A stretch of DNA of 58,262 bases from a virus (taxonomy: Duplodnaviria; Caudoviricetes), in the IMG/VR virus record IMGVR_UViG_3300017783_000021, positions 1-58,262 of that record, one strand, 5' to 3'. A model generated the notes under the pieces. It saw nothing but the letters and a program-made list of their open reading frames with translations. It was not told the DNA's origin and did no database searches. Shown here in pieces: positions 15 to 4,936 of this stretch (positions are counted from its first letter, which is position 1; each line of letters begins with the position of its first letter). A program made the position numbers and the translations under genes.

Positions 15-719
15 ATGCGTACACCAGACGCACTTATGAATGGTGAGAGTATATATGCCTGTGTTAAAAACTGTATTCCAATGATTGACGACCCATGGGA
101 AATTCCATTAATTGATTTAGATGCTGTGTTAGTTGCTATTCGTATTGCAACATATGGCGAAAAAATGAAAATGACAGTTAAAGTTCCAAACGTTGAAGAT
201 GAAGAACTAGATGTCGAAATTGATTTGGTTAACATTCTTGACAGTTTTAGAGGAAAAGTATGGGATCCAATTATCAAGTTTAATGATTTAAAATTGCACA
301 GTGCTCCGTTAAAATTCAAAGACCAAAACTTATACGAACAACAAAACTTTGAAACAAATCAATTTATTGCTATGATGCGTGATAATACTAAACCTCTAGA
401 AGAACGCAAACAAGAAATGTCTAAGGTGTTTGATGCTATCAGTGAAACAAACATTGATCTAGTTACTAATCAAATCAAAGCAATCGAATTGCCAGACGGA
501 AACATTGAGTACAATAATATTGCAATTAAAGAGTTTTTAAATAGTTTACCTGTAAAAGATTTTGAGATTGTTAGATCAGCATTAACAGAACGTCGAAAAC
601 TATTTGAATTACCAAAAACAAATGTTGCGGTGCCAGCCGCGATGCAAGAACAGGGAGCACCGGAAAGTTTTGAACTTCCTCTAGTGTTTAATCAATCAAG
701 TTTTTTCGCTTTGAAGTAA
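15..719 (+). CDS. Baseplate hub assembly protein, T4 gp26-like (5'-truncated by window edge)
   Basis: DLDAVLVAIRIATYGE resembles the gp26 family; ends ...SSFF like gp26 homologues; frame is open back to the window start. Confidence 0.7.
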   Translation: MRTPDALMNGESIYACVKNCIPMIDDPWEIPLIDLDAVLVAIRIATYGEKMKMTVKVPNVEDEELDVEIDLVNILDSFRGKVWDPIIKFNDLKLHSAPLKFKDQNLYEQQNFETNQFIAMMRDNTKPLEERKQEMSKVFDAISETNIDLVTNQIKAIELPDGNIEYNNIAIKEFLNSLPVKDFEIVRSALTERRKLFELPKTNVAVPAAMQEQGAPESFELPLVFNQSSFFALK

Positions 720-940
720 GACAATGTCAATCGCCTGACGAAATTACCGCTTTACTAAAACGTTACGAAAAAGAATACGAAGCAATCGAAAAAGATATAA
801 TCGAACTTACATGGTATATGCGTGGCGGTGTGTCCGTAGACGAATCATATAACCTTAGTCCTAGTCAACGCAAAGTTTGTCACGATCTAATCAAACAAAA
901 CATCGAACTATCAAAAAAATCAGGTAATAACTTATTATAA
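701..940 (+). CDS. gp51-like baseplate hub/tail assembly chaperone segment, probably translated via -1 frameshift from the upstream gene
   Basis: Frame open 692-940 (FFRFEVRQCQSPDEITALLKRYEKEYEAIEKDIIELTWYMRGGVSVDESYNLSPSQRKVCHDLIKQNIELSKKSGNNLL*); first in-frame ATG only at 818; slippery T TTT TTC at 701-707. Confidence 0.6.
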   Translation, partial: FFRFEVRQCQSPDEITALLKRYEKEYEAIEKDIIELTWYMRGGVSVDESYNLSPSQRKVCHDLIKQNIELSKKSGNNLL

Positions 941-944
941 AGTG

Positions 945-1456
945 TGTTAGTAGATGAACTACGTTCATCTGTGTTATCGCTTTCGCTCAAACACATTTAT
1001 TTCTTTATATGAAAAGATAATTGCGATAGCAATTTAGCATCATGTAGATTGTTTCAGTCAGACGGAACCTACTAAATGGTTCCATCTAATCTTGAACATC
1101 ATGTGAGTTCGTCACAGCCAAGACTTGGAAGTAGGTTGTTTGTTTATACACCTGTTTGTGGGGCTCTAACCTTTCCCCTACCTACGTCGACATCACGTAA
1201 AATTCTGTTTTACAAATCGCTTTGCTACCGCAAGCCGCTTCGCGGCCTCTTACGCTACCTCCCGCCTCGTTCCGTTGCGTGGAGTTTTTTCAAACACAGT
1301 GTTTTCGACTGACAGTATTCAATCTACGTTAACCAGTGGCCCAATTCTTTTGATGGCTTACCTCACAGTGGTGGTCGATCAACGTGTACGAGTGTGATTA
1401 TCACATCACCTTTTTCTCAGCGGTATTATAAACTGGCCCGCCAACCTTGTGTACTG
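945..1456 (-). ncRNA. Putative large structured non-coding RNA / structured ssDNA element (family not recognised)
   Basis: Largest intergenic gap; 59/120 G+C at 1201-1320 against an AT-rich background; long-range helices 1044-1051/1320-1327 and 1054-1059/1307-1312; nested hairpins; G-U wobbles that work only on the minus strand. Confidence 0.6.
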
Positions 1457-1888
1457 TTATATTGCCTTTAAATTTTGAAGTGCTTCTTTGAGAATCTTTG
1501 AACTGCCAACTCTAACATTAATAATTCCATTGTAATACTCATCCGTCTCTAACACACGGCGTTCAAATTGTTCTCTAGCCTCTAAGTAACTCATTAAGCC
1601 TCTGCTGTTGCAATAATAAAGTATTTCTCTTGTGAAATTTTCCGCGCCTAGTTGTTGCACATCCGCATTCAAATGATCCGAGGAACCCCAATAGTCCTTC
1701 CAATCTGATTCTACTTTACTTCTGCGTTTATTTTTCTTGCCTTTGAGTGGTGGGCGTGTTTTTTTAAATTTTGCGAGTTTTTTGCCTATATATTTGCGAT
1801 TGTTGGTAGTGTTAGTAATAAGGTATACAAATCCTTCACAGTCTTCTGGAAGATTTTGTACTTTTTTGCCTTGATAAGTCCACTCCAT
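1457..1888 (-). CDS. GIY-YIG family endonuclease (single domain)
   Basis: GFVYLITN...KYIGKK; YWGSS; conserved E (YLEAREQ) and YN (YYNG). Confidence 0.85.
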   Translation of the reverse strand: MEWTYQGKKVQNLPEDCEGFVYLITNTTNNRKYIGKKLAKFKKTRPPLKGKKNKRRSKVESDWKDYWGSSDHLNADVQQLGAENFTREILYYCNSRGLMSYLEAREQFERRVLETDEYYNGIINVRVGSSKILKEALQNLKAI

Positions 1889-1893
1889 GCAGA

Positions 1894-1899
1894 TACTTA
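1894..1899 (-). promoter_or_regulatory. Late-promoter-like box (TAAGTA variant) 5 nt before GIY-YIG ATG
   Basis: Same box-to-ATG spacing as the TAAATA boxes at 12119, 12594 and 37945. Confidence 0.4.
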
Positions 1900-1906
1900 C
1901 CTGTGC

Positions 1907-2137
1907 CTAATCTTGAGTGTCTTGATTCTGAATTGCCTTCTTCTTTGCCTTTAAGTTTTTACGCCTGTCTTGTATTTCATAACGCCTTTGTGTGCATAAT
2001 TTTCTAATATCACTTAGAATAGAACGCAGTTTTCTTCCGTTTTCGTCAAAGCCTTTAGCCTCCCAACGTTCATTTGTGTTATAATAATCCATAATTGCTT
2101 GGATCAACACTTCGTGTGTTGTAGGTTTATCAGCCAT
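1907..2137 (-). CDS. Small basic helical protein (possibly Hc1-like DNA-binding)
   Basis: 76 aa, basic C-terminus, overlaps the gp46 stop; family is a weak guess. Confidence 0.55.
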   Translation of the reverse strand: MADKPTTHEVLIQAIMDYYNTNERWEAKGFDENGRKLRSILSDIRKLCTQRRYEIQDRRKNLKAKKKAIQNQDTQD

Positions 2138-3911
2138 TGACTACCTCTGTGTCATTTTCATAACTTGTAAAACCGTTTTCTTTTATTACTTTTAGTATGT
2201 TGTTAACTCTTGCACTTAATTCTTCCTTGTGCGATATTAGATAGATGTTTTTGTTTCTTTCACGTGCCATCTTTTTAAGAATACCAATCGAACTTTCAAC
2301 ACCAGCAGTATCCATTCCGCTATCAATCAACTCATCAATAAACAATAGGTTAATGCTTTGGTATAAACTTTCCCACACATCACGGAAACTCCAACTCATA
2401 GATAAAATAAGTCTATTTCGTTCACCTCTACTAAGGTTATCAAAGTCTAAGTCACGTCCTAGTTCTGTAATTTCTACTGTTAAATCATTTAAAAACTTAA
2501 CTTGATGTGGCAATCCTGTTTTTTCTAAGTAATATGCTAGACGTTTGTTTAGCACAGCCAAGTTTTGATCAATAATACGTTTACGTATAAAGGAATCTTT
2601 GCTTGTAAGTAGTTTATACAAGAAATCCATATGTGCTTTTATATTCTGTAGTTCGTTCATATGATCCCAAGACACATCTTTTATTGCTGTCTTTCTAAGT
2701 TCTTCCATCTGCTCTGTGTAAGGATTTACATCTTCATCTTTTTCTTTTTTTCTGTCTTCGAGGGTAGCAAGATTATTTCTATGATTAAATGCTTCTTCGG
2801 CAGTTTCGTAAAATGTTTTAGGCCTGCTATCTATTTCTCCTATATCTTCAATTTTTGTATTGCAGTCATTAAGTTGTAGTGTAACTCCGTCAATATATGT
2901 TTGACTTTCACTAACATCATTTTCTTTTTCTTTTAATAATTGTTCATGTGAACCATCATGTAGATCTTGTCCACATGTAAAACACTTTTTACTTTGAATA
3001 TCTTTTAGTTCTTGTTCATATTTTTTGTGTTGTCGATCAGCACGTTGTAATGATGCTTCTAAACTTGCTTTTTCTTTTGTTAAATTTGTAAGTTCTGTAT
3101 TTTTTGTTTCCCAATCACTTAACTTATTAAATGATTCTATCTCAGCATCAATATCAACTTGAATGAGTTGCATAATTGCTTTGCTTAATCGCGAAATTTC
3201 TTCTGCCTGAGAGGCGTCCCAAGCCTTGCTTTTAATTTCAAGGGCATTAATAGATTCTTGCACAGCCTTGTTTGCACTTTCGATACCATTAATACGAGCA
3301 TCTTCTTCAGTAATACTGTCACGAATACCTTTTTGTTGCTCCTTGAGATGTTCTGCCTTCTCAGATAGAATGGTGATACCTAATAACTGTTCAATAATTT
3401 CGCGTTGGGCGTTATTACTGAGAGATAGGAAAGGCTCTGTGTAAGTATTAAGTGCCACCAGGTGTTTGAACATGCCGTGACTCATGTTCAAAAGACGTTC
3501 TATATCTTGCTGTGTTTTACGACTATCGCCTTGCGATTCGTCAATGTCGTCAGCAGTTGAATCTACGTCATTAATATAAAATTTTAATACATTCTTTTTT
3601 CTTCCACGTTCAATTCTATATGAACGACCTTCTTTTTCAAATTCAACAGTAACTAACATATCCTTACCGTTAGTTTTGTTAATTAAATTTTCTTTACGTA
3701 TTTTAGTAAGTGCTTCACCGTATAATGCATAACTTAACGCATTAATAATTGTAGTTTTACCTGTACCGTTACGTGATCCTGCATCATCACCACCTAGGTC
3801 CATGTTTTCGCCAAGGACTAGTGTTAGAAAGTTTTTATCAAAACCTACTGCTTGTGTTGTATTTCCAACACTCATAAAGTTTTTAACTGTTAAAGTCTTA
3901 ATTTTAAACAT
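2130..3911 (-). CDS. gp46: Recombination endonuclease ATPase subunit (gp46/SbcC/Rad50)
   Basis: Walker A NGTGKT, coiled coil with CFTC zinc hook, LSRGE signature, Walker B LFIDE, ISH H-loop. Confidence 0.95.
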   Translation of the reverse strand: MFKIKTLTVKNFMSVGNTTQAVGFDKNFLTLVLGENMDLGGDDAGSRNGTGKTTIINALSYALYGEALTKIRKENLINKTNGKDMLVTVEFEKEGRSYRIERGRKKNVLKFYINDVDSTADDIDESQGDSRKTQQDIERLLNMSHGMFKHLVALNTYTEPFLSLSNNAQREIIEQLLGITILSEKAEHLKEQQKGIRDSITEEDARINGIESANKAVQESINALEIKSKAWDASQAEEISRLSKAIMQLIQVDIDAEIESFNKLSDWETKNTELTNLTKEKASLEASLQRADRQHKKYEQELKDIQSKKCFTCGQDLHDGSHEQLLKEKENDVSESQTYIDGVTLQLNDCNTKIEDIGEIDSRPKTFYETAEEAFNHRNNLATLEDRKKEKDEDVNPYTEQMEELRKTAIKDVSWDHMNELQNIKAHMDFLYKLLTSKDSFIRKRIIDQNLAVLNKRLAYYLEKTGLPHQVKFLNDLTVEITELGRDLDFDNLSRGERNRLILSMSWSFRDVWESLYQSINLLFIDELIDSGMDTAGVESSIGILKKMARERNKNIYLISHKEELSARVNNILKVIKENGFTSYENDTEVVNG

Positions 3912-4936
3912 TATAAATTCCTATAGATATCTAAAAGTGTATTTGGTCTGTATTGTTCGCTTTGAATCTTTGTAATCTGATCAGTTACAATTTGATCAAC
4001 ACTTTCAAACTCTATTTCTCCTCTTTCAAGTGTTAGTGCTTCGTCGTTTTCTTCTGTATTAGGTAGTAAACTAATTTCTCTAACATCATATTGTGCAGAA
4101 AAGTTTTCTTTAATAAAGTTAGCCTCTTCGTACGAGATATCGATATCCAATGTTACACGTAGATACAAGTTACTAGGTGTAAGAATATTTTCTGTGTTAT
4201 CTAATAGTTGTGATAATTTAACTGTTCGATACTTAGGGCAATCTTTCCAATCAACGTATTGTGGTTGACCACCCCACTCTAGTATCATCATTCCTCGTTC
4301 GTCGTCCCATGCATCGGCATAATTGTGCGGAAAGGCATTGCCGATATAATGTATATTATTTTGCACTTGACGTTTATGGAAATGACCACTAAAAACTAAT
4401 TCTTGACTTTTAAAGTCTGCGGCTTTAACTTCTCCTGTGTCAGGCATTTCAACCATAGCATTCATTTTAAAATGAGGAAGTTCAAAATGACCAAACATAT
4501 ATTTGCATTTCATTTTAACAACTTTTTTCCATTCTTCGCCTACTAGCCACGGAACCAATGCAACATTTCCTACTACTTCGGGTTCTGTAACTACTGTTAC
4601 TCCGGGTACGTGTTTTCCAAAAACCACACTATGAATATCTCGTTTGTCTTTGTAATATAAATCATGGTTGCCTGGAAAGAAATAAAATTCTTTAAATGCT
4701 TTACCTAATTTTTCTAGACACCTTAGACTAGTATCCATAGTCGTAAGATTTAAGGCACTTCTGTTATGGTGCCAATCTCCGCTAAAAATACCTACGTCAC
4801 AATTTTGTGATTTTGCTTCACTGATATACCAATCAACAAATCTTTCACAGTCGTCATTGTGAATTTTACTATTTGATTTTAAACCAAAATGAATGTCTGT
4901 AAATACAGCCGCTTTTTTAAACAGTTGTTCTGTCAT
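3911..4936 (-). CDS. gp47: Recombination endonuclease nuclease subunit (gp47/SbcD/Mre11)
   Basis: Metallophosphoesterase motifs DIHFG, GDWHH, GNHD, GHFH; coupled to gp46. Confidence 0.95.
   Translation of the reverse strand: MTEQLFKKAAVFTDIHFGLKSNSKIHNDDCERFVDWYISEAKSQNCDVGIFSGDWHHNRSALNLTTMDTSLRCLEKLGKAFKEFYFFPGNHDLYYKDKRDIHSVVFGKHVPGVTVVTEPEVVGNVALVPWLVGEEWKKVVKMKCKYMFGHFELPHFKMNAMVEMPDTGEVKAADFKSQELVFSGHFHKRQVQNNIHYIGNAFPHNYADAWDDERGMMILEWGGQPQYVDWKDCPKYRTVKLSQLLDNTENILTPSNLYLRVTLDIDISYEEANFIKENFSAQYDVREISLLPNTEENDEALTLERGEIEFESVDQIVTDQITKIQSEQYRPNTLLDIYRNL

What the first reader, a model, noticed from the sequence alone, without database searches (positions are those of the whole stretch)
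1035..1456. Large structured non-coding RNA immediately downstream of a GIY-YIG nuclease gene: candidate new ribonucleoprotein system
Seen: in an otherwise gene-dense AT-rich genome, ~500 nt of GC-richer non-coding DNA begins right at the nuclease stop codon. On the minus strand, GUAGAUUG (1327-1320) pairs with CAAUCUAC (1051-1044) and UCAGUC (1312-1307) with GACUGA (1059-1054), closing a ~250-nt domain. Inside are GUAGGU/ACCUAC (1185-1180/1136-1131), GGGG/CCCC, UGUGA/UCACA (1116-1102) and AGAUGGAACC/GGUUCCGUCU (1087-1060). A 5' stem UUGGCGG/CCGCUGA (1444-1417) has a loop GCCAG that could pseudoknot with CUGGU (1336-1332). Several stems need G-U wobbles that would be C-A mismatches on the plus strand, which points to an RNA on the nuclease strand. 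I do not recognise it as tRNA, tmRNA, RNase P or an intron. Inference: a co-transcribed RNA partner of the small nuclease, which carries a basic KKTRPPLKGKKNKRR insertion (by analogy with HEARO/omega RNAs), or a ribozyme, or a replication-primer RNA.
Basis: partly seen in the sequence, partly recalled or inferred. Interest (0 to 1): 0.9.

Follow-up and report, generated by a model that had tools for sequence, protein, structure and literature searches.

The report
Ornate phage RNA beside GIY-YIG nuclease
A real, roughly 430-base, knot-rich RNA gene lies directly after a small nuclease gene in hundreds of uncultured T4-like water phages; one part of this RNA family was catalogued in 2010 as the Polynucleobacter-1 motif, and what it does is still unknown.

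Summary
On the minus strand, about 1462 to 1038, lies a conserved RNA gene. It starts inside the stop codon of a 143-aa GIY-YIG nuclease gene and ends at a terminator-like hairpin.

- **Structure.** In 62 distinct relatives, a 77-pair structure with two pseudoknots is 89.7% paired, and its covariation beats all 500 shuffles.
- **Linkage.** Searching by RNA motif alone, 210 of 211 testable loci have the nuclease gene just upstream. Searching by gp46 alone, 78 of 78 have it downstream. The pair is therefore a fixed, syntenic module, not a patchy mobile element.
- **Rfam.** Nothing matches the window. In 21 of 41 related loci, however, the 5' domain of the same RNA is RF01718 (Polynucleobacter-1), a motif of unknown function.
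- **Twin motif.** Two 10-nt motifs, one in a loop and one at the 3' tail, stay identical within each RNA through at least 8 sequence states. No partner for them was found in cis.

Best reading (0.4): an independent, trans-acting stable RNA kept next to a Seg-type endonuclease gene, as tRNA genes sit next to segB in T4. A nuclease-RNA complex remains possible (0.3). It is a new variant of a known kind.

The parts
1457..1888 (-). 143-aa GIY-YIG nuclease gene (catalytic domain only; stop codon 1459-1457)
   Evidence: Pfam PF19835 SegE_GIY-YIG, E 5.2e-36. PHROG 447 covers the whole protein. Y22, Y33, E103 and N120 are among the 42 columns invariant in 47 aligned sequences. The AF2 model has pLDDT 89. 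The best solved fold is the I-TevI catalytic domain: Z 8.3, rmsd 2.7 over 82 residues. Three more GIY-YIG enzymes follow.
1038..1462 (-). Structured RNA, about 425 nt, from just before the stop codon to the second copy of the twin motif
   Evidence: Conserved in every locus read. On 62 distinct sequences, 77 pairs are 89.7% paired. The covariation score is 0.298, against 0.143 for shuffles (0 of 500 as high) and 0.073 or less for slid partners.
1453..1457 (-). P1 5' strand (ACAGU); begins at the last base of the stop codon and pairs with 1316-1312
   Evidence: 100% paired; 4 of 5 pairs have compensatory change (CG 41 / AU 19 / GC 2, and so on).
1307..1324 (-). Hairpin H2 (GAUUG 1324-1320 / CAGUC 1311-1307). 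Its loop (1316-1312) is the 3' strand of P1, which makes pseudoknot 1.
Evidence: 98.4% paired; 4 of 5 pairs compensatory.
1327..1442 (-). 5' domain. H3 is 1442-1438 / 1423-1419. H4 is 1418-1416 / 1392-1390. The variable hairpin H5 is 1409-1406 / 1397-1394. The long-range helix H6 is 1384-1376 / 1335-1327.
   Evidence: H6 has 5 of 9 pairs compensatory (UA 33 / CG 29; AU 31 / GC 29). H5 has 4 of 4. Other lineages carry other 5' modules in this position, one of which is RF01718.
1149..1301 (-). Helix P-a (1301-1299 + 1296-1291 with 1158-1153 + 1151-1149). It crosses GUAGGU/ACCUAC (1185-1180 / 1136-1131), which makes pseudoknot 2. It encloses helix CUCC/GGAG (1284-1281 / 1262-1259) and the variable arm 1255-1195.
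   Evidence: These are among the highest mutual-information pairs in A3. 7 of 9 P-a pairs show compensatory change, but only 64% of cells pair, because MAFFT shifts the register between subclasses. The arm at 1250-1200 is absent or replaced in relatives.
1097..1107 (-). Twin motif, copy 1 (CUCACAUGAUG), displayed in a loop
   Evidence: It stays identical to copy 2 within each RNA while differing between RNAs.
1060..1087 (-). Hairpin AGAUGGAACC/GGUUCCGUCU between the two motif copies
   Evidence: 99.2% paired; only one-sided G-U changes. The 3' strand plus the tail is an exact 30-mer in more than 120 IMG/VR contigs.
1038..1047 (-). Twin motif, copy 2 (CUACAUGAUG), the single-stranded 3' tail
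   Evidence: No conserved 6- or 7-nt complement lies within -900 to +150 nt.
1007..1034 (-). Terminator-like hairpin (AAUUGC-UAUC-GCAAUU, 1034-1019) and U-rich tail
   Evidence: Read from the sequence. Present with compensating stems in relatives. It falls below the GC threshold of the simple terminator scan.
952..994 (.). Two further conserved hairpins at the end of the shared block (971-994 and 952-970). Probably bidirectional terminators for the convergent genes.
   Evidence: The block of similarity with relatives starts at 955. The 971-994 element recurs nearly unchanged in distant loci.

Best explanation
The region encodes a stable, independently folding, trans-acting RNA of about 425 nt.

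- **How it is made.** It is produced from the 3' end of the gp47-gp46-small ORF-GIY-YIG transcription unit. It ends at the hairpin at 1034-1019. This step is inferred.
- **Fold.** It folds into a swappable 5' domain and a conserved, pseudoknotted 3' core. This is shown by covariation.
- **Twin motif.** The 3' core displays two identical 10-nt single-stranded motifs, one in a loop and one as the 3' tail. I take these to be paired recognition sites for one trans factor, which is not identified. This step is inferred.
- **The neighbouring gene.** It encodes an active-looking Seg/I-TevI-type DNA endonuclease that has become fixed at this position.
- **Why they stay together.** As with segB and the T4 tRNA cluster, break repair started by the nuclease would co-convert the nuclease gene and the RNA gene together. 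That would keep them linked, keep them more alike between phages than the flanking core gene, and let RNA domains be exchanged. This is inferred by analogy.
- **Family.** The RNA belongs to the same gene family as Rfam's Polynucleobacter-1 motif, with a different 5' module.
For: **RNA reality and fold**
- type A; type B. In type B, 50 pairs score 0.382 against 0.159 for shuffles, 0 of 500 as high. Two pseudoknot helices are 100% paired with 4 compensatory pairs each.

**Each partner can exist without the other**
- L189 carries the RNA in another gene context without the nuclease, behind TTGACA-17 nt-CATTAT.
- Phage Melnitz has the nuclease at 77.8% identity next to nrdB with no RNA.
- In cyanophage Bellamy, a homologue is followed by a tRNA array.
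- In four loci, another ORF or a C-terminal extension lies between the nuclease domain and the RNA.

**Exchange signature**
- Over 169 loci, the nuclease averages 78.7% identity to the window's copy, against 68.2% for the adjacent 250 C-terminal residues of gp46.
- One 5' module (B5a) occurs with three kinds of 3' core: 19, 41 and 4 unique RNAs.

**Nuclease looks active**
-.

**Precedent**
- SegB drives preferred inheritance of the T4 tRNA region (PMC2330249, abstract seen).
- SegB drives amplification of adjacent tRNA and anti-defence genes, and segB is enriched near tRNAs in 296 phage genomes (PMC13096335, abstract and section 10 read).

**Expression**
- RNA-library contigs cover the RNA. 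In one run, only the RNA stretch was assembled. This is weak evidence, because these are contigs, not reads.
Against: - The nuclease gene is not patchy, as a homing gene usually is. It is present in 78 of 78 testable gp46-first loci and in 210 of 211 RNA-first loci. Simple vertical synteny explains the linkage equally well, and so does a physical partnership.
- Higher conservation of the nuclease than of gp46 may reflect constraint rather than exchange.
- The RNA starts inside the stop codon, with a nucleotide motif (AGGCA) conserved whatever the reading frame. That points to a tighter coupling than mere neighbourhood.
- No cleavage site, no empty site and no trans factor were identified.
- The function of the RNA itself is not explained.
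Confidence: 0.4

Rival explanations
1. Nuclease-RNA complex. The RNA is a dedicated partner of the GIY-YIG protein. It could act as a scaffold or targeting subunit, or as an inhibitor in the manner of an RNA antitoxin. The two identical motifs would be the binding sites of a protein dimer.
For: - Adjacency holds in 210 of 211 RNA-first loci.
- The RNA begins at the stop codon.
- The protein is a bare catalytic domain of 143 aa with no separate DNA-binding domain. It carries a basic beta-hairpin at residues 40-60.
- It is conserved like a core gene.
- The twin motifs change in parallel through at least 8 states with no partner in cis, as expected for sites read by one co-evolving factor.
Against: - The same small architecture (PHROG 447, profile of 148 aa) works without this RNA in Melnitz, cyanophages and rhizobiophages.
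- The RNA stands alone in L189.
- There is no variable guide-like end. The 5' end is locked in P1, and the 3' end is the conserved motif plus a terminator.
- Extra ORFs can lie between the two genes.
- Adjacency in a syntenic clade is not evidence of binding.
Confidence: 0.3
2. Cis-acting element. The RNA is a 3' UTR that stabilises or regulates the nuclease/gp46 mRNA, or a 5' leader of the next gene. The second option follows the 2010 table entry for Polynucleobacter-1, which marks it 'cis-reg: y'.
For: - No terminator or clear promoter separates the ORF and the RNA.
- Weinberg 2010 Table 1 lists RF01718 as probably cis-regulatory (PMC2864571; only the passage with the table row was seen).
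Against: - In the window, the RNA is followed by three hairpins and then by convergent genes, so there is nothing downstream for it to regulate.
- About 425 nt with several pseudoknots and a swappable domain is far more than known stabilisers need.
- L189 has its own promoter.
Confidence: 0.1
3. Replication-origin or primer RNA made next to the recombination genes 46 and 47.
For: - Its position is at the end of the gp47-gp46 unit, beside a baseplate-hub gene. T4 ori(uvsY) lies near genes 25/26; this is recalled, not tested.
Against: - Compensatory base changes select for an RNA fold, not for an RNA-DNA hybrid.
- No strand-skew switch was examined beyond, and none stands out there.
Confidence: 0.05
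4. Self-splicing or self-cleaving ribozyme of a mobile element: a group I-like intron with its GIY-YIG homing endonuclease.
For: - GIY-YIG genes are typical of phage group I introns.
- The best solved fold is I-TevI.
- The RNA has a pseudoknotted core.
Against: - No Rfam intron or ribozyme family matched, even at E up to 10.
- There are no exons on either side.
- RNA-library contigs show no joint across the RNA.
- The helix order does not fit P3-P7-P8 (my reading).
- The position is fixed.
Confidence: 0.03

Closest known systems
Polynucleobacter-1 RNA motif (Rfam RF01718; Weinberg et al. 2010)
   Same: In 21 of 41 related loci tested, the 141-nt model matches at 59-119 bits (gathering score 37). 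The match begins about 20 nt after the stop of the homologous GIY-YIG gene, which makes it the 5' domain of the same RNA gene. These RNAs share the window RNA's 3' architecture: twin motif, hairpin, terminator.
   Different: - The window's own RNA does not reach the model, even at E up to 10. Its 5' domain is another module.
- RF01718 covers only about a third of the RNA.
- The pseudoknotted 3' core, the twin motif, the phage context and the nuclease linkage are not in the one passage I could read.
- The function of RF01718 is unknown.
segB and the tRNA / stable-RNA gene cluster of phage T4
   Same: A small GIY-YIG endonuclease gene abuts stable-RNA genes in a T4-like phage. Linkage there is kept by endonuclease-driven co-conversion and amplification (PMC2330249 abstract; PMC13096335 abstract and section 10). 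A homologue of this protein precedes a tRNA array in phage Bellamy.
   Different: - Here the RNA is one large pseudoknotted molecule, not tRNAs.
- The nuclease gene is fixed rather than patchy.
- No cleavage site is known.
HEARO / omega RNAs of IscB and TnpB
   Same: A large structured RNA is tightly linked to a small nuclease gene, and the RNA overlaps the end of the ORF.
   Different: - The nuclease family differs (GIY-YIG, not RuvC/HNH).
- There is no transposon.
- There is no variable guide segment at either RNA end.
- There is no Rfam match to those families.
Group I introns carrying I-TevI-type GIY-YIG genes
   Same: The nuclease fold matches (Z 8.3 to 1LN0), and a large pseudoknotted RNA lies next to it in a T4-like phage.
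   Different: No exons, no splice joints and no Rfam intron match. The ORF lies outside the RNA.
Two-piece tmRNA of Melnitz-like and pelagimyophages
   Same: A pseudoknot-rich stable RNA of similar size is carried by related marine T4-like phages (PMC9004378; passages read).
   Different: No tRNA-like domain and no tag frame. ARAGORN and the Rfam tmRNA models find nothing.

Membership tests
Rfam RF01718 Polynucleobacter-1 RNA | Covariance-model score at or above the gathering score (37 bits) in the window itself | tested here: not met
   0 matches at gathering on the whole window. Nothing for this family at E up to 10 on 650-2000.
Rfam RF01718 Polynucleobacter-1 RNA | Homologous RNAs at the same genomic position reach the model | tested here: met
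   3 of 9, 10 of 12 and 8 of 20 loci, at 59-119 bits. I chose the loci; they are not a random sample.
Rfam RF01718 Polynucleobacter-1 RNA | The window's 5' domain is homologous to the 141-nt motif, rather than an alternative module | tested here: inconclusive
   The order of elements is similar: a hairpin with a GGCC/GGCU loop, then a hairpin, then a long-range helix after ACUCGU. No profile test links them, and 5' modules are swapped between lineages.
GIY-YIG nuclease superfamily (Pfam PF19835 SegE_GIY-YIG) | Profile match above the curated cut-off | tested here: met
   124 bits against a cut-off of 25, covering residues 3-123 of the protein and 1-123 of the profile.
GIY-YIG nuclease superfamily (Pfam PF19835 SegE_GIY-YIG) | Catalytic residues kept (GIY Tyr, YIG Tyr, Glu, Asn) | tested here: met
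   Y22, Y33, E103 and N120 are invariant in 47 aligned sequences of 55-92% identity and at 98% or more of 143. Their assignment as catalytic residues, by comparison with I-TevI, is recalled. The catalytic Arg was not placed.
GIY-YIG nuclease superfamily (Pfam PF19835 SegE_GIY-YIG) | GIY-YIG fold | tested here: met
   The AF2 model has pLDDT 89. VIA-align gives I-TevI Z 8.3 (rmsd 2.7, 82 residues aligned), PD-T4-3 6.6, UvrC N-domain 5.6 and T4 EndoII 5.3 as the four best of 48,161 chains. Foldseek alone was weak (E 0.12).
Free-standing homing endonuclease (Seg type) | Patchy presence or absence among close relatives | tested here: not met
   Present in 78 of 78 testable loci found through gp46 alone (2 more were too short).
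Free-standing homing endonuclease (Seg type) | Separate DNA-binding domain, and cleavage of the cognate site in endonuclease-free genomes | not testable with these tools
   The protein ends about 20 residues after the catalytic domain. No empty site was found to examine.
Group I intron | Match to the intron model, flanking exons, spliced junctions | tested here: not met
   No Rfam match. No minus-strand ORF of 40 aa or more between 720 and 1456. No joint across the RNA in 4 RNA-library runs (contigs only).
Guide RNA of an RNA-guided nuclease (HEARO/omega RNA type) | A variable, unpaired guide segment at one end of a conserved scaffold | tested here: not met
   The 5' end pairs in P1, 100% paired with compensation. 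The 3' end is the conserved motif followed by a terminator hairpin.
tRNA / tmRNA / RNase P RNA | Detection by ARAGORN or the Rfam models | tested here: not met
   0 genes found. 0 Rfam matches.

The most novel reading that the evidence does not exclude
The GIY-YIG protein and the RNA form a new kind of ribonucleoprotein. A bare GIY-YIG catalytic domain is held as a dimer on the two identical 10-nt motifs of an ornate RNA. The RNA then either aims the nuclease or keeps it silent until needed, in the manner of an RNA antitoxin. That would be the first RNA-dependent GIY-YIG enzyme, and it would give a function to the 16-year-old orphan motif Polynucleobacter-1.
Probability: 0.25. Interest if true: 0.9.

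Novelty: new variant of a known kind. Interest (0 to 1): 0.62.

Why it matters
Large RNAs with intricate conserved folds are rare. Most that have been solved turned out to be ribozymes or partners of enzymes; HEARO, for example, became the guide RNA of IscB.

This one is abundant:
- both marine and freshwater relatives.

The work here adds several things:
- It ties the orphan Rfam motif Polynucleobacter-1 to a defined phage module.
- It roughly triples the motif's size.
- It gives a covariation-backed fold with several pseudoknots.
- It reveals an unusual signal: two sites kept identical within each RNA. That signal points to a single trans partner that can be fished out experimentally.

Whichever reading is right, the module is a fixed feature of a large uncultured clade of T4-like phages, and no cultured phage in the 50,697-record collection carries it.

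Tried and rejected
**Searches and tests that found nothing or did not decide**

- **Rfam on the window.** The gathering search gave 0 matches. The E-value search on 650-2000 gave only a chance MALAT1 row at E 5.4.
- **ARAGORN.** No tRNA or tmRNA gene.
- **blastn against 50,697 phage records.** Four RNA variants were tried, types A, B, B' and C. None matched.
- **PDB by sequence.** No GIY-YIG chain at E up to 1.
The closing helices and the pseudoknot were rejected on covariation. UGUGA/UCACA is unsupported.
- **GUCUYGG / YYRAGAY.** This alternative to GUCGA/UYGGC is undecided. One pair shows UA 22 / CG 20 / other 19.
- **My helices 3 and 4 in the type-B structure.** They were wrong, at 36-46% paired.
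- **A third strand for the twin motifs.** No conserved 6- or 7-mer complement within -900 to +150 nt.
- **Tiny ORFs or stop codons in the motifs.** Considered. Every state reads NNA-UGA or NNA-UAA. I could not test it and make no claim.
- **Promoter scan.** The only good hit on the minus strand (1453-1425) lies in a variable loop and is not conserved. The 3 hits are fewer than the 4.4 expected by chance.
- **RNA libraries.** Contigs only. They show no ends, no strand and no expression level. The cover confined to 1086-1395 in one run is only a hint. The parts without cover mean nothing.
- **MAFFT Q-INS-i.** Not installed.
- **Early MAFFT alignment of all downstream regions.** Too heterogeneous to use.
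- **Glutamine-riboswitch-like words (GGAACG, GUAGG).** Noticed, but no Rfam match to those families.
- **Homology of the window's 5' domain to RF01718.** Not settled. I built no covariance model of my own.
- **Polynucleobacter genomes.** I could not look at the motif's context there.
- **2010 supplement.** The supplement that describes Polynucleobacter-1 was closed. It may already mention phage or GIY-YIG neighbours.
- **Literature searches.** No paper linked a GIY-YIG gene with this RNA. 'Polynucleobacter-1' occurs in one paper only.
Full report
**Setting**

The window is a 58-kb fragment of an uncultured T4-like phage. CheckV rates it 16% complete.

- On the minus strand lie a late sigma-factor gene, gp47 (3911-4936), gp46 (2130-3911), a 76-aa ORF (1907-2137) and a 143-aa ORF (1457-1888).
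- A baseplate-hub gene converges from the left.
- The 143-aa protein matches Pfam PF19835 (SegE_GIY-YIG) at E 5.2e-36 over the whole profile. It matches PHROG 447 over its whole length.
- Between its stop codon and the convergent genes there is no minus-strand ORF of 40 aa or more.
- Windows covering 1101-1400 have GC 0.475-0.485, against 0.28-0.41 elsewhere in the first 6 kb.
- The minus strand folds better than shuffled sequence (z -3.05, 0 of 100 as good). The plus strand reaches z -2.27.

**Is the RNA real?**

- A 24-base word from the region found six IMG/VR contigs. In them the block 955-2200 is 83-98% identical, yet the RNA part is almost invariant apart from one hairpin that changes on both strands.
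- The nuclease protein has at least 588 relatives in IMG/VR. Every one of the downstream stretches I read, from the 80 best loci, carries a GC-richer RNA-like stretch of 300-450 nt. These fall into several sequence classes.
- I aligned 62 distinct RNAs of the window's class (A3) and derived helices from mutual information.
- The resulting structure has 77 pairs in 14 helices.
  - 89.7% of cells are paired.
  - 40 pairs show change on both sides.
  - The covariation score is 0.298, against 0.143 for shuffles (0 of 500 as high) and at most 0.073 when partners are slid.
- A second class (A4, 51 sequences) gives 0.382 against 0.159 (0 of 500). Five of its helices are 99.7-100% paired, and two of them cross others as pseudoknots.
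- The RNA is real, and its fold is under selection.

- The RNA starts at the stop codon. The last A of UAA (1457) opens helix P1 (1457-1453), which pairs with 1316-1312.
- That partner is the loop of a local hairpin (1324-1320 / 1311-1307). The 5' domain is therefore closed by a pseudoknot. Both helices have 4 of 5 pairs with compensatory change.
  - On A3 these have no compensatory pair.
  - They pair exactly as often as shuffles do (80.2%, 500 of 500 shuffles as high).
  - The 3' strand is invariant, while the 5' strand changes together with its local partner.
- CUGGU belongs to a 9-bp helix (1384-1376 / 1335-1327) with 5 compensatory pairs.
- A second pseudoknot joins 1301-1291 to 1158-1149, across GUAGGU/ACCUAC.
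GUAGGU/ACCUAC and the 10-bp hairpin at 1087-1060 are compatible but nearly invariant. UGUGA/UCACA has no support.
- The arm at 1250-1200 is a variable insertion that is missing in many relatives.

**The twin motif**

- Copy 1 (1107-1097) sits in a loop. Copy 2 (1047-1038) is the 3' tail just before the terminator-like hairpin.
- Within each RNA the two copies carry the same letters. Between RNAs they differ.
- In classes A and B, the two variable positions agree in nearly all sequences.
- Over all loci, a loose pattern found 230 unique segments. It also catches chance hits in coding DNA. In 207 segments the variable dinucleotide is the same in both copies, and in 205 the following pentamer is the same.
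- The matched states are AC-AUGAA (91), AC-AUGAU (68), AG-AUAAU (20), GC-AUGAU (8), GC-AUAAU (6), GG-AUAAU (4) and several singletons.
- This is parallel covariation, not complementary covariation.
- No conserved complement of 6 or 7 nt exists within 900 nt upstream or 150 nt downstream.
- The simplest reading is that one trans factor reads both sites. I could not identify it.

**Linkage**

- Scans with RNA motifs alone, with no protein information:
  - 118 loci for the window's 3' core: 95 have the nuclease gene 290-730 nt upstream, 22 are cut by the contig end, and 1 (L189) lacks it.
  - 122 loci for a second 3' core plus two MAG contigs: 115 have it, 7 are cut, 0 lack it.
- A scan with the C-terminal part of gp46 alone gave 80 loci. 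78 have the nuclease gene downstream, 2 are too short, and 0 lack it.
- The module is therefore fixed and syntenic in this clade, not patchy.
- Over 169 loci the nuclease is 78.7% identical to the window's on average, against 68.2% for the neighbouring gp46 part.
- Both partners can exist alone.
  - L189 has the RNA in another gene context behind a sigma-70-like promoter.
  - The cultured phage Melnitz has the protein at 77.8% identity after nrdB, with only about 150 nt before the next annotated gene.
  - More distant homologues precede a tRNA array (Bellamy) or ordinary genes.

**Identity**

- Nothing in Rfam 15 matches the window.
- Rfam searches on related loci hit RF01718, Polynucleobacter-1 RNA, at 59-119 bits (gathering 37). 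Hits came in 3 of 9, 10 of 12 and 8 of 20 loci.
- Each match begins about 20 nt after the nuclease stop and covers the 5' domain only. The rest of these RNAs has the same 3' plan as the window's: motif, hairpin, motif, terminator.
- One positive locus has a nuclease 80% identical to the window's (L048).
- By a rough pattern-based sorting of 211 unique RNAs, 5' modules and 3' cores are combined in different ways. One 5' module occurs with three kinds of core.
- The family is thus a larger, modular RNA, of which Rfam knows one 5' module.
- The only paper in the library that names the motif is Weinberg 2010. Its Table 1 lists it as a likely RNA, probably cis-regulatory, from Burkholderiales and fresh water (PMC2864571, one passage seen).

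**The protein**

- In 47 aligned sequences of 55-92% identity, 42 columns are invariant. They include Y22, Y33, E103 and N120. The same columns hold in 143 sequences.
- The AF2 model has pLDDT 89. The basic stretch forms a beta-hairpin.
- The four best of 48,161 solved chains are all GIY-YIG enzymes: I-TevI Z 8.3, PD-T4-3 6.6, UvrC 5.6, T4 EndoII 5.3.
- It looks like an active DNA endonuclease consisting of the catalytic domain alone.

**Expression**

- Sixteen runs hold half or more of the sampled words of 900-2300. Six of the holding runs are RNA libraries.
- Laid contigs from four RNA libraries cover the RNA. One run assembled only 1086-1395, and no joint spans the RNA.
- These are contigs, so they show presence only.

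**Interpretation**

What is shown:
- a real, ornate RNA;
- a fixed module together with an intact GIY-YIG gene;
- partial identity with RF01718;
- a twin motif that points to a trans partner.

What is inferred is how the RNA and the nuclease relate.

- I rank first (0.4) an independent stable RNA whose gene is kept beside a Seg-type endonuclease gene by co-conversion. The precedent is segB and the T4 tRNA genes (PMC2330249; PMC13096335). The reasons are that each partner occurs alone, there is no guide-like end, and the pattern looks like exchange.
- The RNP reading (0.3) is kept alive by the 210-of-211 adjacency, the start inside the stop codon, the bare catalytic domain and the twin motif.
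- The cis-regulatory, origin-RNA and ribozyme readings are weaker.
- The first experiment to run is a binding and cleavage assay with and without the RNA.

Noticed in passing
window 699-940 (+): The baseplate-hub-like ORF (15-719) stops 10 nt after a T_TTT_TTC heptamer (701-707), and the -1 frame stays open to 940 (78 more codons). In relative L005, which is about 73% identical here, the same heptamer (1691) is followed by a 0-frame stop and an 80-codon -1 frame. This may be a programmed -1 frameshift.
   Followed up: partly
window 1889-1912 (-) and the same place in most loci: A conserved word, GGUAAGUA, lies about 5-8 nt before the nuclease start codon. In some loci it is replaced by UAUAUAAGU or UUUAAAUAAG. 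It could be a late-promoter-like or translation signal. No Shine-Dalgarno sequence is evident.
   Followed up: no
window 1463-1468 (-), 1903-1907 (-), and spacers of L020, L071, L076, L077, L189: The word AGGCA(A/C) lies just 5' of the RNA whatever the reading frame of the ORF end. It occurs again after the stop of the upstream 76-aa ORF. It is repeated several times where a spacer separates the ORF and the RNA. Whether it is a processing site, a promoter part or a protein site is unknown.
   Followed up: partly
window 1907-2137 (-): A 76-aa basic ORF between gp46 and the nuclease gene has no Pfam or PHROG match. It is nonetheless conserved at this position in many loci, at 28-82% identity.
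   Followed up: no
window 971-994: The hairpin GUGUUUGAGCG-AAA-GCGAUAACAC recurs almost unchanged downstream of the RNA in distant loci of all classes. Conservation this strong is more than a plain terminator needs.
   Followed up: no
L132, L099 (after the nuclease domain); L122, L179: In these loci, a C-terminal extension of about 95 aa or a separate small Cys-rich ORF lies between the GIY-YIG domain and the RNA.
   Followed up: no
L210, L211 (genome contigs): The only two hits in 185,579 species genomes are contigs of 335 kb and 153 kb in one MAG labelled Candidatus Neomarinimicrobiota. Both carry the nuclease gene upstream. They are probably large phage contigs binned with the bacterium.
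   Followed up: partly
L206 4438-4480 (phage Melnitz): Right after the Melnitz nuclease gene stands AUAGCAAC-UGCCAUA-GUUG, followed by a TATAAATA late-promoter word. It looks like the P1 helix of the type-B RNA with the whole interior deleted.
   Followed up: no
window 1591-1724: One RNA-library contig skips 132 nt in frame inside the nuclease ORF, at about residues 55-99 (depth 7, side 30). It may come from a relative with a shorter protein.
   Followed up: no
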